NCBI RefSeq assembly: GCF_000497125.1
Contig: NC_090598.1
Span: 62,001-126,000 of the forward strand
DNA: 64,000 bases
Direction of reading: 5' to 3'
DNA from: Spironucleus salmonicida
Lineage: Eukaryota
The position numbers were made by a program, and so were the translations under genes. Below are positions 6,963 to 15,534 of this stretch, piece after piece; within the stretch, counting starts at the first letter, position 1, and every line of letters begins with the position of its first letter. Under the pieces are notes generated by a model. That model was not told where the DNA came from. It worked only from the letters and a program-made list of their open reading frames with translations, and made no database searches.

Positions 6963-7334
6963 ATGAAAGAATATATTCCTATTTCTAATGAACTATATTA
7001 ATCAATAAAAAACTCACACTGTCCTTAACGTAAACATAATGTACCTTCTAAATGGGGAGTAGATTTATCAACGAACAAACTGAAATAAATTCCCGTTTAA
7101 GAGTAACCATTATTACCTTCCATCGGATAAATAAGAGGGAAATATTAAAACTTTGGACAATTTCTTAACCTTATAGAAGAAACAGAGATAACCCCAATAG
7201 TTTAAGAACGGTTGTAAGTTTAAAGAGAAAAAAAACATAGATTGTTTGCATATAAATATACCTTAAATCAAACTAGCAAAATATAACTATAGATAAATGG
7301 AATATCATTTATTGCGTAATCACTTCTTAAATGA
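6963..7334 (+). CDS. Hypothetical protein (123 aa)
   Basis: Table-6 ORF MKEYIPISNE...QSLLK*; overlaps the convergent gene by 15 nt. Confidence 0.6.
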
Positions 7335-8321
7335 GATTATGTTCTAAATTATCTATATTAATATATCTTAGATATCATCATCAATAAATTAACACAATAA
7401 TGCTTCTGAATTCGAAATTTTATTAATGATAGTATTATATATTAGCTAATATTTATCTTCTAATTTTATTTTTAATTCTGTCTCAACAATACTTATTCTT
7501 AATTCGAGTTCTAAATCATTACCTAGTAAAATATCCAGTAATTTTTTCAGATCATTATTATTAATGTTTAGTTAAATTATTTCTATTATCTTATTATTTT
7601 TTAGTCTATAATATACTTGTAATAAATCTTATTTTTCTTTTTTTAAATCAAACCCAGAGAATATAGTATTATTTATCAATTTTAAGGGTTCAGGTCGAGG
7701 CTTATAGTCTCTATTTAACATTGCCTTAATAATTTTATACAAATTGGCACTATAAAATGTAGGAATCGGTTAAACTGAGCTAAAAAGTATTCCTGTAACA
7801 ATGGTTTTTTAGGATATGGGAAAAGGCTATTAAAACGAAGAAATATAATATAAAATACAGCCAATGGCAAAAATATCAGATTTTTAATTATATTATTTAT
7901 TGGTAAGAAATTCTGGAGAGTCATACACGCTTTGTTACCTCCCACAAAAAAGTTACGAAAAAATTCCTATTTTGACATTAAAATTTTAATCAAAAAATAT
8001 ATTTTCTGGATACAACGCACGATGTATTAGCTATTACTTGTGCATTGAACAGATTGCTGATAAAATTTATTAAAAAATATATAAAATTTATCCTTCCTTA
8101 AAATAAATATTCTCTATTTTAAATAGTTAAATTAATTACTCTAACGAAATATATGATGATGAATCTTCAAGAAATATTTAAAGTTCTAATCCGACTATTT
8201 AAAAATTTATTATTTATAATAGTTAAGCAGACTAATTTTTTTAATAAACTTCAATTTTTTGGAGGAACTTCTAGATAGCAGCCTCATCCTTAAATTTAAT
8301 CACTTGTTAAGTATTGTTCAT
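7320..8321 (-). CDS. NEK-like pseudokinase (333 aa)
   Basis: LIHRALYPENIF (HRD to HRA), VKIGIFS (DFG lost), YDSPE and KSDIFAIGCILY; no Gly-rich loop. Confidence 0.75.
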
Positions 8322-8368: not shown

Positions 8369-9079
8369 ATGAAACTCATATCATAGTTTACTTCAGATGC
8401 CTTTATTTTATCAATACCTAAGTATTAATGCTTGCCTTAAATTTTTTCTTATAATTAATAAACTAATAGATTAATAATTAATGATAAAAATTATATCTTA
8501 TAACCGTATTAAGTTAATAAAATAGCAGCCATTACCTTTAATTAAGGACAATTTTTAATTTAAGATCTCCCATTTGTATTTAAATCTTCAATTTAAAAGG
8601 TTTTACCTATAGTTTATACATAAAAATCTATCAGAATTTAAGACTTAAACATATCATAAAATTATGGCGTTCCTAAAAATATACTCGGAATAACGTAGAA
8701 AATATTACCATCAGATACTGTTAATAAAATAAAGTTTGAAGATTTTACAAGTATTGCCAGTGTAAAATCATCTTTATCTTCAAAACCTCAATTATAAATA
8801 TCCTACGAATTATAGAACTTTGCCTGTAAAACATTACCTTTCTAATTAGAACATTCTACAAATATAATAGGTTTAGAAATTTATGAGAACTTAATGTAGT
8901 ATTAATTTTGCATTCCGTTGGTTCATTGGATTCGAGGAAATAAAAGTAGCTTCCTAGTATTTAAAGAAATTTTTATTCACTAAATGGGTAGTTTTGACAA
9001 TTGGGAATTGAAAATTAGTAAGCTTTTACGAGGAAGTCAAAGAGGATAATTTTTAGCAATGCTCCCTAAATCTGAATGA
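8369..9079 (+). CDS. Hypothetical protein (236 aa)
   Basis: Table-6 ORF MKLISQFTSD...MLPKSE*. Confidence 0.65.
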
Positions 9080-9127
9080 TAATATATTATATAGCAAATA
9101 TTAAATTATATATTTAAACACCATTCC

Positions 9128-9285
9128 TTTGGTCTATCATTCAGAAGTGACATGCTTAGATCAACTGTAGTACAAGTTTATACCTTAGTGAAATAAGGTA
9201 TCCAGATATTTCTGGTATTATCTTTTTTTATAACTTCAGGAAAGTTTCCGCGAAAGCATCTTTGGGAATCAACCTGCTGTTTTTC
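9128..9285 (+). ncRNA. U2: U2 spliceosomal snRNA candidate (ends approximate)
   Basis: GCTTAGATCAACTGTAGTA (9154-9172) closely matches the U2 core GCUUAGAUCAAGUGUAGUA, including the branch-point-pairing GUAGUA. Hairpins follow in U2 order: atacctta-gtgaaa-taaggtat (IIa), ccaga-tatt-tctgg (IIb), a U-rich Sm-like tract and a 3' stem-loop. Intergenic position. Confidence 0.8.
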
Positions 9286-9343
9286 AAATATATTTTCAAT
9301 ATAATATAATATATTTATGAGTAGTGTATTTCCATAATTTATA

Positions 9344-10003
9344 ATGTCCGCTCCAATTTAGTATGTACCTCCAAACTATGAGACACCTGCGCCAAACAGG
9401 TATAGTGTTAATAATAAATATTTAGAAAAATAAGCACCTGCTTACTCTTTTTCTTCTAGAACTCCATTACCATAATCTTAAAAAAATAATCCTGGTCCTA
9501 CAAAATATACTCCCAAATACAAAGAAGTTACACCAAGTTAACCGGAATTTTCTTTAAGATATCGCCATGCTAGACCTTAAAATAATTTACCTGGTCCAGG
9601 AGCACATAATCTAAACTTTGCTTAAGTTGATAAGACGCCAAGGTCAGCATCGCTGGGTGCCAGAACATAGCCTGGTAGTATTTTTCGAACGCCTTTTTCA
9701 CTCAAACCAGTTAAATTTGATGAGATTCAAAAGAAACCTCCTCAATATTCATTTAGAGCTAAAAGATTCAACACACTTGAGCAGAAATCTACAACATCTG
9801 AAAAACTTTCAGCAGCCAATTATTATCCAGATAAAAATTTTGGAAAACCATCAACACCATAATTCACACTTAGAAGTCGTACAACTACATGCCGAGGCCC
9901 ATCAACTCCAGGACCCGCCAAGTATGCAAACTAGCGGACAAGTTTTAGAAGAGAAGGCTTTAGCTTTGGTGGATGGAACAAATAGGGGTTTAATATTTGG
10001 TGA
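9344..10003 (+). CDS. SHIPPO-repeat / ODF3-like axonemal protein (219 aa)
   Basis: Repeated TPAPNRY, NPGPTKY, LPGPGAH and TPGPAKY motifs with P.YSF spacers. An in-frame upstream ATG exists at 9317. Confidence 0.8.
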
Positions 10004-13455: not shown

Positions 13456-15534
13456 TCACTTTGCAAATTCAATATAATTAGCATGACTTTAAGTCACTAA
13501 TCTTTCTATGTATTTAAATATATCAGACTTCTAAATATCACTATTAAATATAATTTTTGCATCAAATATAAGTTTTTTATTAAATTTATTTACTAACATT
13601 AAATAATTAGATTTCACAATTAATTTTTATCCAGTAAATTTATCTTGAAACTAAAATTAGTCGTCATTTAGTAAAAAAAATTACTATTCCGATATATTTT
13701 TCCATTTTTTAATATAAGGTAACGGTAATTAACCAAAACTAGTAAGTTTGTGTAAAAATGATTCTTCTATTTCTTCAAAATTTAAATTCAACACTGTTTA
13801 TTTTTCATATATTTTATTATATTATTTAGATAAGTTTTACACTTATTTAGTAGCATATTCAATATTAAAATTATCTAATTTGGTATGTGCCTACTAGTTT
13901 TCTGAAGGGTAAAACAAATTGAATTCATTGCCTTTAAAAAGCAAATCACAATTCTCTAAATCATTTTAATGTAATGTACTATATTATTATAAATACTTAC
14001 TAAATTATAAGAATATCATCCAATTTTTCTTTGGAACAATTTATTCAGCTTTATCATATTGAAATCTAATTGTGTGGCCGATCTCATCAGTATAATCTCC
14101 GAAAATACAATGAGGGCTAACAACAACTTATGTTCTATCATTAAACACGAATCCTTTATAACCTTATGATAATTAATATGCTATGCCATATTTCTCTGAA
14201 TGATCTTTAAGTTAAATAATATAATATATTTCATGAAAATTATAAAATTATTACTTTAAATTGTTAAAGAAATGACCTAATTTTTCAAAGCCTTCTAGTT
14301 AATCAGAATTGGTGGGGTAAATACGCTTAGAAAAAAACTAACTTGGATAGTATAAGAATTATATATCACCATCAGTTAAGAGAAATGTTAAATCAGTTGT
14401 CTCAAACTATGTAAAGGTTTCCTTTAAATATGTCTATACACTAATCATTTCTGTATCTAACTTTTAAGTCTATGAACATTTAATAGTAATTGAATCTGTA
14501 TAATTAAAGCTTTCTGTGAGTTAATGAAGTTTTTAAGAGAATTTTTCTGTAAATATATCCATAGGTAAATATTTTAATTTTATATTATTACCATTTTAAA
14601 TCCAACAATCATCTAATAAATCTTTTACTGACGGTCGTTAATCAGGCTACTTGATCAAGCACTAAGAAATAAATTTAAACATAAACTCGGAGTATTAGTT
14701 CTTATAGACTTTGGGAAAATTTATATGACCCTTTAGTATATTTTTATAAGTTGAAGTAGCATTCAATTATTCGAAGGGTGCTTTACAAAAAGCTAATTAA
14801 TAAACTAAACACCCTAAACTCCAAATATCAGTTGAATATTAATATCCTTATGTAAATACCTAAGGTAATCCTTTGCATATAGACTAACATTCATGATCAA
14901 TATTGTCTTCACAAGTTTATTATTATGATAATCTGCGAAATACATGAGATGCAATTAGTTCTGGCGATAAAAAATTTGGTGTTCCACATAAGGTAAATCG
15001 GAATTCATCTTTGACATATGCAGACAGGCCAAAATCTCCTAATTTAGTTATAACTTAACTATTAATTTTCTTTAAAAATATATTACTCGGTTTAATATCT
15101 CTGTGCACAATATGATTCAATTATAACTCTTATATAGATAGCAATAATTCATATGTGACTCTTTATATTTCCTCTTCGGTCAATCCATTTCTTCTTTTAT
15201 ATAAGGTTGATAATGAAATATTTTCACAAAGCTCTAAGATTATATAATAGTTATTACTATCTTTACATATTGAAACTACTTCACATATATGTAAATAATG
15301 CAAACTTTTATGTATTTTAATTTCTTGGTGGAATTTTTCAATTACTTTCTTATTAGTAAGCCGTTCTTTAGATGTAATCTTACAAGCAAATGATTAACTT
15401 GTATGTATATCAGTAATTACATAAACTTCCGCAAAGCCTCCTTTACCCAATAATTAACCAACTTTATATTATTTAAGGCGTCTTTCATCCTTTATAATGT
15501 CAGGAACTTTAATACTAATTTGTTTCTAGTTCAT
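13456..15534 (-). CDS. PLK: Polo-like kinase (692 aa)
   Basis: LGKGGFAEVY, ACK, HRDIKPSN, DFGLS and TLCGTPNFLSPE, contiguous in frame with the polo box DHSEKYGIAYQLSQGYKGFVFNDRT. Confidence 0.92.

What the first reader, a model, noticed from the sequence alone, without database searches (positions are those of the whole stretch)
9128..9285. U2 snRNA candidate hidden in an intergenic gap of an apparently intron-less region
Seen: GCTTAGATCAACTGTAGTA at 9154-9172 differs by one base from the yeast-type U2 core. Stem I is extended (ggtcta/tagatc plus tcatt-caga-agtga with a catgct bulge). There is a perfect 8-bp stem IIa (9180-9201), stem IIb (9202-9215), an atypical Sm-like tract (ttatcttttttta) and a single 3' stem-loop (cagg..tttcc-gcgaaagc..gggaa..cctg). 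It follows the same kind of C-rich motif that precedes mRNAs. Known: diplomonad snRNAs are divergent and introns are very rare. Inference: a reduced spliceosome is retained, UGUAGU would pair with an ACUAACA branch point, and only one 3' stem-loop remains.
Basis: partly seen in the sequence, partly recalled or inferred. Interest (0 to 1): 0.75.

Follow-up and report, generated by a model that had tools for sequence, protein, structure and literature searches.

The report
Known U2 splicing RNA of Spironucleus
This is a real U2 splicing-RNA gene that was already published for the fish parasite Spironucleus salmonicida; the possibly new point is that it can pair with an unexplained motif found in each of the parasite's four published introns, which may make up for the U2 proteins reported missing in this species.

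Summary
Window 9133-9280 (+) is letter for letter the 148-nt Spironucleus salmonicida U2 snRNA candidate of Hudson et al. 2019, who already reported the missing stem-loop IV. Rfam scores it only 22.3 bits (cut-off 46). Against the S. vortens U2, 7 of 12 pairs of stems IIa/IIb change on both sides and none breaks (by eye, two sequences). Three points are not in the paper's text. (1) U2 9174-9178 pairs 5/5, in register, with the unexplained AACUU just upstream of the branch point in all 4 published introns, against 0 of 24 non-intron sites; this gives a 12-pair branch helix, -8 against -4 kcal/mol. All 12 U2 proteins searched were reported missing in this species. (2) The 'Sm-like' tract forms an equally stable stem-IIc-like helix. 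(3) The 'odd' base C9165 closes a hairpin presenting the branch-pairing bases. Fig. 6 of the paper could not be seen. No U6 was found; expression is not shown. The scan had not noted this RNA on other DNA.

The parts
9118..9129 (+). C-rich promoter-like motif (CCATTCC core at 9121-9127) after an AT-rich stretch
   Evidence: same core as before the ribosomal-protein genes in L018, L032 and L023. Motif described as a putative promoter in PMC3916229 (passages). Function untested.
9133..9280 (+). U2 snRNA gene, published bounds (148 nt); true ends unmapped, and the 5' end may lie as far up as about 9120
   Evidence: Identical to Ss_U2 in Additional file 10 of PMC6679479 (one search compared by eye; length 148). 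Single copy in G000. Rfam U2 22.3 bits, alignment starting at 9120.
9131..9162 (+). Stem-loop I, with a lower stem that holds the U6-pairing bases
   Evidence: -6.8 kcal/mol; the lower 6 pairs need two bases 5' of the published start.
9154..9162 (+). GCU (9154-9156) and GAUC (9159-9162): U2 side of U2/U6 helix Ib and Ia
   Evidence: named as conserved. No U6 partner found.
9163..9178 (+). 4-pair hairpin AACU/AGUU with loop GUAGUACA, like the branchpoint-interacting stem-loop; uses C9165
   Evidence: Present in the minimum-energy and centroid folds of 9133-9280; weak alone (-1.3 kcal/mol). S. vortens has G at that place.
9166..9172 (+). Branch-point recognition sequence UGUAGUA; 7 pairs with UACUA(A)CA, branch A bulged
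   Evidence: -3.9 to -4.0 kcal/mol.
9174..9178 (+). AAGUU: complementary, in register, to the AACUU motif upstream of the branch point of the introns (extended branch helix)
   Evidence: 5/5 in L006, L015, L018, L032 and L023; 0 of 24 sites without a 5' splice site reach 5/5.: -8.0 to -8.1 kcal/mol; the 10 slid registers give 0-3 of 5.
9180..9201 (+). Stem-loop IIa, 8 pairs, 6-nt loop
   Evidence: 4 of 7 comparable pairs change on both sides in S. vortens, 0 broken (by eye).
9202..9215 (+). Stem-loop IIb, 5 pairs
   Evidence: pair probability 0.81-1.0; 3 of 5 pairs change on both sides in S. vortens, 0 broken (by eye).
9218..9231 (+). U-rich tract: atypical Sm-site candidate and 3' strand of a stem-IIc-like helix with 9188-9200
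   Evidence: 12 of 13 positions pair (3 G-U), -14.2 kcal/mol with IIb, equal to IIa+IIb; pair probabilities about 0.5 for each form.
9233..9280 (+). Single 3' stem-loop (SL III); no SL IV
   Evidence: -10.7 kcal/mol for 9233-9282; loss of SL IV published.
8369..9079 (+). Upstream neighbour: 236-aa ORF of no Pfam family (code 6)
   Evidence: contigs of 4 guessed-RNA runs of one study cover parts of 8381-9060.
9344..10003 (+). Downstream neighbour: SHIPPO-repeat protein (start 9317 or 9344)
   Evidence: PF07004, E 5e-15; contigs cover 9326-10001.

Best explanation
The locus is the single-copy gene for the major-spliceosome U2 snRNA of Spironucleus salmonicida (about 0.93). It is probably transcribed by RNA polymerase II from a C-rich promoter like those of ribosomal-protein genes (inferred: an internal run of 7 T would stop polymerase III, by my recall of its terminators). 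Proposed working: the hairpin 9163-9178 presents GUAGUA; the intron's UACUAAC pairs with it and bulges the branch A (complementarity shown, use inferred from the known U2 mechanism); the intron then displaces the hairpin, and its upstream AACUU pairs with U2 9174-9178, giving 12 Watson-Crick pairs in 13 positions (complementarity shown; use in the cell inferred, about 0.65). Stem II toggles between IIa and a IIc-like form (inferred, about 0.55). GCU and GAUC pair with a U6 that is still unidentified (inferred). The longer RNA helix may stand in for the SF3a/SF3b proteins that hold the branch helix in other eukaryotes and were not detected in this species (inferred, about 0.35).
For: Identity with the published candidate. 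The S. vortens orthologue was detected by RT-PCR. Stems IIa/IIb keep 12 of 12 comparable pairs, 7 by double change (by eye). Core match in 0 of 100 shuffles. Prp8 is present in G000 (70.3 bits, over the cut-off), as is a U5-like stem-loop in two copies (2 of 16 loop-I matches). Extended pairing: 5/5 in the 4 published introns and in L023, 4/5 in L007, and 5/5 in 0 of 24 other sites (30 of the 33 sites were fetched). Energy doubles, and slid registers give at most 3 of 5. The two A's 9174-9175 are shared by both Spironucleus U2s and differ from the four non-diplomonad U2s and the Giardia U2. By eye, 10 of 10 S. vortens introns (7 supported by EST or RACE, 3 predicted) give at least 4 pairs with the same U2 stretch, 5 in register and 5 with the C bulged. 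Rps4, which lacks the AAC motif, still gives 5 pairs, and 4 introns extend to a G opposite a C specific to the S. vortens U2. In model systems the branch helix extends to 15 nt and is stabilised by SF3A2, SF3B1 and SF3B6 (PMC11482624, passages), and IIa/IIc are mutually exclusive (PMC8516221, passages). 0 of 12 U2 proteins were found in S. salmonicida.
Against: Below the Rfam cut-off, and a genome-wide RF00004 search did not list this locus (47 of 1254 candidates scored). No expression data for this species in the paper's text or here. No U6 found. The intron test is in effect one coincidence, not five, because the introns share the motif: P about 0.002 from base composition. Three of the five bases (GUU) are ancestral in U2, so only two pairs are new. 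Two registers had to be allowed in S. vortens. A U-rich tract pairs easily with any purine-rich loop, and G-U pairs are many. The presenting hairpin is weak and has a G-G mismatch in S. vortens. The authors warn that missing proteins may only be too divergent to detect, and my two searches (PHF5, SF3b1) found nothing but had no positive control. The authors assign the AAGUU stretch to U2/U6 helix III.
Confidence: 0.93

Rival explanations
1. It is U2, but 9174-9178 works only as U2/U6 helix III, and the intron's AACUU is a protein-bound pyrimidine tract; the complementarity is a coincidence (the published labelling).
For: PMC6679479 labels the U2 stretch helix III and calls the intron motif pyrimidine-rich. 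Three of the five U2 bases are ancestral. S. vortens spacing varies by one base. Giardia U2/U6 is described as forming helices I-III.
Against: No U6 is known to test helix III. U2AF65, U2AF35 and SF1, which would read a pyrimidine tract or branch site, are scored absent. The register is exact in 5 of 5 sites. The motif-less Rps4 intron of S. vortens keeps pairing (by eye).
Confidence: 0.3
2. A minor-spliceosome (U12) or hybrid U2/U12 RNA, because of the single long 3' stem-loop.
For: A single extended SL III is a U12 trait; Giardia snRNAs are hybrids.
Against: GUAGUA and GAUC match U2 and not the U12 rows. There is no CUACUUU loop and no U11/U12 protein (0 of 8). Rfam lists U2 and no U12 at E up to 10 (overlapping clan matches keep only the best).
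Confidence: 0.03
3. A silent relic, with a better U2 elsewhere in the genome.
For: No expression shown; atypical Sm site; Rfam score below the cut-off.
Against: Single copy. The only RF00004 match listed elsewhere is a 46-nt partial without the branch-pairing motif (16.4 bits). Three introns are RT-PCR-confirmed and need a U2. All stems are intact.
Confidence: 0.02
4. Protein-coding or chance sequence: the 5' part of the SHIPPO-repeat frame from the ATG at 9152, or the minus-strand frame 9141-9668.
For: Both frames are open under code 6; folding z-scores are modest.
Against: The first SHIPPO repeat listed starts at residue 78 of that frame, and the minus frame has no Pfam match. Open frames are common with one stop codon (248 of at least 80 aa in the window). 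Core match in 0 of 100 shuffles, and the orthologue is conserved in S. vortens.
Confidence: 0.02

Closest known systems
S. salmonicida U2 snRNA candidate, Hudson et al. 2019, PMC6679479 (Fig. 6c, Additional file 10)
   Same: Identical over all 148 nt; same SL I, IIa, IIb and III, missing SL IV, and GCU/GAUC reading.
   Different: The paper's bounds start at 9133, so the two outermost pairs of the lower stem I fall outside. Its text has no occurrence of 'IIc', 'BSL', 'promoter' or 'C-rich', and the sections read do not link the intron motif to U2. The figure itself was not visible.
S. vortens U2 snRNA candidate (same paper; RT-PCR detected)
   Same: 36 of the first 45 nt identical per the paper; same UACAAGUUU after the branch-pairing bases; IIa/IIb kept by double changes; a IIc-like pairing of loop and U-tract is possible (7 pairs, 2 G-U, by eye).
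   Different: 163 nt, GC-richer; G instead of C9165, so the presenting hairpin is weaker; 3' two-thirds divergent.
U2 spliceosomal RNA, Rfam RF00004
   Same: Core 16 of 18; order of SL I, branch-pairing bases, IIa, IIb, U-tract and 3' stem-loop.
   Different: 22.3 bits against the 46 cut-off; CAA in place of UCU after GUAGUA; no SL IV; no RAU4-6GR Sm site.
Giardia lamblia U2 snRNA, PMC3510501
   Same: Short diplomonad U2, single copy, no canonical Sm site, described with an extended branch-site pairing.
   Different: There the pairing covers the branch-site consensus AACUAACAC itself and the ancestral CUGUU is kept; here it runs further upstream through changed U2 bases. Giardia keeps several SF3 proteins.
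Co-evolved U1 snRNA of Entamoeba, bioRxiv 10.1101/2022.06.08.495308
   Same: An snRNA pairing region changed to match a transformed, extended intron signal in an intron-poor protist (passages).
   Different: U1 and the 5' splice site, not U2 and the branch region.

Membership tests
U2 snRNA (RF00004) | Branch-point recognition sequence GUAGUA able to pair with the organism's branch sites, bulging an A | tested here: met
   9166-9172 gives 7 pairs with each of the 4 published introns and L023.
U2 snRNA (RF00004) | GCU and GAUC for U2/U6 helix Ib/Ia, spaced by two bases, just 5' of the branch-pairing bases | tested here: met
   9154-9156 and 9159-9162.
U2 snRNA (RF00004) | An actual U6 partner forming helices I and II | tested here: inconclusive
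   Two patterns and the Rfam U6 model gave no credible U6; none published.
U2 snRNA (RF00004) | Stem-loops I, IIa and IIb, conserved in structure | tested here: met
   Folds; 12 of 12 comparable IIa/IIb pairs kept in S. vortens, 7 by double change (by eye; two sequences only).
U2 snRNA (RF00004) | Alternative stem IIc between the IIa loop and a tract 3' of IIb | tested here: inconclusive
   An equally stable helix exists and S. vortens allows one (by eye), but the tract is U-rich and of low specificity.
U2 snRNA (RF00004) | Canonical Sm site RAU4-6GR between IIb and SL III | tested here: not met
   9218-9231 has a C before the U run and an A after it (consensus as). The U5-like RNA has a canonical site; Giardia U2 also lacks one.
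U2 snRNA (RF00004) | Stem-loop IV (U2B''/U2A' site, from established knowledge) | tested here: not met
   One 3' stem-loop only; published as a diplomonad loss, with U2A' and U2B'' scored absent.
U2 snRNA (RF00004) | Rfam gathering score of 46 bits | tested here: not met
   22.3 bits. It is a divergent U2 by function and orthology, not a curated-threshold member.
U2 snRNA (RF00004) | Expressed, capped, Sm-bound RNA | not testable with these tools
   No RNA holder on record; contigs cannot show a short RNA.
U12 snRNA | U12-type branch-pairing bases and CUACUUU loop in SL III | tested here: not met
   Alignment B of Additional file 10; no such loop in 9233-9280.

The most novel reading that the evidence does not exclude
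Spironucleus runs a spliceosome whose U2 particle has really lost SF3a and SF3b and picks the branch point by RNA alone. U2 and the few remaining introns co-evolved a 12-pair Watson-Crick branch helix, so the unexplained AACUU intron motif is a second U2-pairing signal that replaces protein anchoring, with a rebuilt presenting hairpin and a protein-free IIa/IIc switch.
Probability: 0.3. Interest if true: 0.72.

Novelty: already known. Interest (0 to 1): 0.3.

Why it matters
The gene itself adds nothing to the record. The extra pairing matters because branch-site recognition was thought hard to simplify: the reduced spliceosome of C. merolae keeps all three SF3a and five SF3b proteins, whereas none of 12 U2 proteins was found in S. 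salmonicida. If a longer U2-intron helix is what allows that loss, it would be a natural case of RNA pairing replacing SF3a/SF3b. It would also explain a conserved intron motif that has no assigned role, and it can be tested with one compensatory-change experiment on a 43-nt intron.

Tried and rejected
Expression: no RNA holder listed on record. Contigs of 4 guessed-RNA runs of one study cover both neighbours but not 9061-9325; this is no evidence either way.

Relatives in metagenomes: a 21-nt pattern gave 2 loci (L034, L035), neither with U2 structure or an Rfam U2 match; rejected as chance.

U6: (a) ACAGAG N0-4 GRTYAGC gave 1 match (L033:1501) where about 3 are expected by chance; it has no Rfam U6 match and no canonical internal stem-loop by eye. 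(b) ACAGAGA N0-5 RTYAGC gave 2 matches against 3 in the control, both in what read as coding sequence. (c) Rfam U6 gave 13 matches, best 21.1 bits, which lies in what reads as the end of a cysteine-rich membrane-protein gene and lacks ACAGAG (5 of the 13 rescanned, 1 read). No Rfam match at E up to 5 in 19.5 kb around the two U5-like copies. U1 and U4 were not searched.

The genome-wide RF00004 search missed this locus and gave one partial match, so that search is insensitive here. PHF5 and SF3b1 searches found no candidates but had no positive control. Folding z-scores were not significant. Hexamita inflata intron sequences were not found by a term search of that paper's supplements (the table was not opened), so a third species could not be tested. 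No covariance model or formal covariation count was made, because only one U2 sequence was held as a locus; the S. vortens comparisons are by eye. L007 and L021 have a 5' splice-site-like word but were set aside: L007's ATG opens a 512-aa frame unspliced, and L021 has 0/5 pairing. A literature search for 'branch helix' with 'anchoring site' and 'helix III' returned 0 papers.

Full report
Setting. The window has only 5 ORFs of at least 100 aa under the standard code and long ORFs under table 6, as in hexamitid diplomonads. The stretch in question lies between an ORF of no Pfam family (8369-9079) and a SHIPPO-repeat gene (9344-10003, PF07004, E 5e-15). It is single-copy in G000. With one stop codon, frames also run across it (an ATG at 9152 in frame with the SHIPPO gene, and a minus frame 9141-9668), without Pfam support in those parts.

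Observation. The 18-nt U2 core of the Rfam consensus matches with 2 mismatches, reached by 0 of 100 shuffles of the window (8 of 100 at 3 mismatches). Rfam ranks U2 first among 7 matches in 8600-9800, but at 22.3 bits against a cut-off of 46. Folding energy is not exceptional (z -1.84 and -1.21). The comparison with yeast U2 rests on recall and was not tested.

It is published. Additional file 10 of Hudson et al. 2019 (PMC6679479) prints a 148-nt S. salmonicida U2 candidate. Read, it is window 9133-9280 letter for letter. Of that paper I read the abstract, parts 2-3 of 8 of the text, sections 10, 11, 13, 14, 16, 17 and 21, passages, and Additional files 2 (long cells cut), 5, 9 and 10; figures are not held. 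It reports SL I, IIa/IIb, III, a predicted Sm site, the loss of SL IV, conserved GCU and GAUC, RT-PCR detection of the S. vortens orthologue, a U5 candidate, and no U1, U4 or U6. It reports no experiment on the S. salmonicida RNA in those sections. The four published introns are in G000 as L006, L015, L018 and L032; three were RT-PCR-confirmed and the one matching L006 was not (PMC3916229, passages). The species is named from these identities.

Structure across two species (by eye, loops aligned). Stem IIa: 7 comparable pairs, 4 changed on both sides, 3 unchanged, 0 broken. Stem IIb: 5 pairs, 3 changed on both sides, 2 unchanged, 0 broken. The spliceosome core is present: a Prp8 domain scores 70.3 bits, over its cut-off, and 2 of 16 U5 loop-I matches, identical over the stretch printed, fold into a long stem-loop followed by a canonical Sm site. 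I could not check whether that is the published U5, whose sequence did not turn up in the supplements.

Extended branch helix. After GUAGUA, four non-diplomonad U2s read UCUGUU and Giardia reads ACUGUU after its GUAGUU, while both Spironucleus U2s read CAAGUU. The paper notes a conserved motif, AAC followed by pyrimidines, directly upstream of the branch site and calls it a pyrimidine tract. Placed in the register fixed by the branch pairing, U2 9174-9178 is its exact complement. Of 33 genomic RCTAACAANNYAG sites, 30 were fetched and scored. Of the 6 with a 5' splice-site-like word within 62 nt, 5 pair 5/5 (the four published introns and L023) and L007 pairs 4/5. Of the 24 without one, none reaches 5/5, and two reach 4. 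The helix then has 12 Watson-Crick pairs in 13 positions, with C9173 unpaired and the branch A bulged. Its energy goes from about -4 to about -8 kcal/mol, and the 10 slid registers give 0-3 of 5. Caution: the introns share the motif, so this is one coincidence (P about 0.002 from composition), and three of the five U2 bases are ancestral. In S. vortens, by eye, 10 of 10 introns (three only predicted) give 4-8 pairs with the same stretch. Five do so in register (Rpl30, Rps4, Rps24, FolC-like, ORF 3) and five with the C bulged (Rpl7a, Rps12, Rps15, ORF 1, ORF 2). Rps4 lacks the AAC motif yet pairs at 5 positions, and four introns extend to a G opposite a C that only the S. vortens U2 has. In model systems the branch helix grows to 15 nt by displacing the presenting stem-loop and is held by SF3A2, SF3B1 and SF3B6 (PMC11482624, passages; PMC12407996, passages), so this region of U2 does face the intron. 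The paper scores 0 of 12 U2 proteins, and also SF1, U2AF35 and U2AF65, as found in S. salmonicida, with the warning that they may be too divergent to detect. My searches for PHF5 and SF3b1 found no candidate, without a positive control. The inference is that RNA pairing replaces protein anchoring. The general idea that intron features compensate for lost components is in the paper's abstract; this specific pairing is not in the text I read, where the stretch is labelled U2/U6 helix III. Fig. 6 may show more. Searches bearing on whether it is in print were (listings; only the top 12-20 of many were shown). Term searches in PMC10158995, PMC10711314, PMC4829280, PMC9509377, PMC11787283 and the Entamoeba preprint gave passages only, none describing it. 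Theses and subscription papers are not covered.

Two smaller points. First, the 'one-base difference' C9165 pairs with G9176 in a 4-pair hairpin whose loop is GUAGUACA. It appears in the best and centroid folds of the published RNA, is weak alone (-1.3 kcal/mol), and has a mismatch in S. vortens. Second, the U-tract pairs with the IIa loop and 3' strand at 12 of 13 positions, with the same energy as IIa (-14.2 kcal/mol each with IIb), as expected of stem IIc (PMC8516221, passages). The two loop differences in S. vortens are A/G exchanges opposite U (by eye). The tract is not a canonical Sm site, and Giardia U2 is also described as lacking one (PMC3510501, section 14 and passages). U-rich tracts pair easily, so this is suggestive only.

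Promoter. CCATTCC at 9121-9127 shares the core seen before three ribosomal-protein genes. PMC3916229 describes an 11-nt C-rich motif about 10 bp before start codons in 16.7% of genes. Of 20 other long window ORFs inspected, only 3 to 5 show a C-rich stretch, in line with that.

What failed. No U6, no metagenomic relative, no usable expression data. Earlier notes of the scan on this genome concern the introns, not this RNA, and no look-alike was noted elsewhere.

Verdict. A real, divergent U2 snRNA gene, already known. It works like U2 and is the orthologue of an expressed U2 candidate, while failing three canonical features (Sm consensus, SL IV, Rfam cut-off). Interest 0.3, carried by the untested extended-pairing reading (0.3 probability for the full 'RNA replaces SF3' case, interest 0.72 if true).

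Noticed in passing
L023:1475-1513 (+) = G000:C5:49987-50025: A 39-nt intron-like stretch with GTATGT, AACTT and the exact 13-nt branch/3' motif, beyond the four published introns. It lies in frame in a 52-codon ORF of no Pfam family, head-to-head with a gene that reads as Rpl19 (name from my recall). It may be a fifth intron, but PMC3916229 says all motif matches were inspected and tested, so it may have failed.
   Followed up: partly
L059:1456-1565 (+) and L060 (-); G000:C6:884550 and 890972: U5-like RNA (loop I, long stem, canonical Sm site) in two inverted copies 6.4 kb apart, identical over the 215 nt printed, in a GC-rich region unlike the AT-rich U2 locus. The paper reports one U5 match.
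   Followed up: partly
window 9152-10003 (+): Under code 6 the SHIPPO-repeat frame is open from an ATG inside the U2 gene, so a longest-ORF annotation would swallow the snRNA; contigs of guessed-RNA runs begin at 9326-9364.
   Followed up: yes
L033:1501-1550 (+) = G000:C2:966532: The only ACAGAG-GATCAGC word in the genome, followed by two short hairpins; chance level by count (about 3 expected), not a credible U6 on present evidence.
   Followed up: partly
window 9146-9150 and 9187-9191: The U2 gene contains AGTGA twice, the word that overlaps the stop codon of 9 of 20 long window ORFs and that I recall as the poly(A) signal of this genus.
   Followed up: no
L032:1452-1513: The Rpl30 intron is 62 nt in G000, while Additional file 5 labels the same letters 67 nt.
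   Followed up: no
L045-L048 (G000:C2:640150-908400): Four 58-nt matches with identical weak U6 scores on contig 2 point to a dispersed repeat.
   Followed up: no
window 7320-8321 (-) and 13456-15534 (-): Two kinase-like ORFs near the locus: the first has a Pfam kinase domain but reads HRALYPEN and IGIFS where HRD and DFG motifs are usual (motif names recalled); the second looks Polo-like by eye.
   Followed up: no
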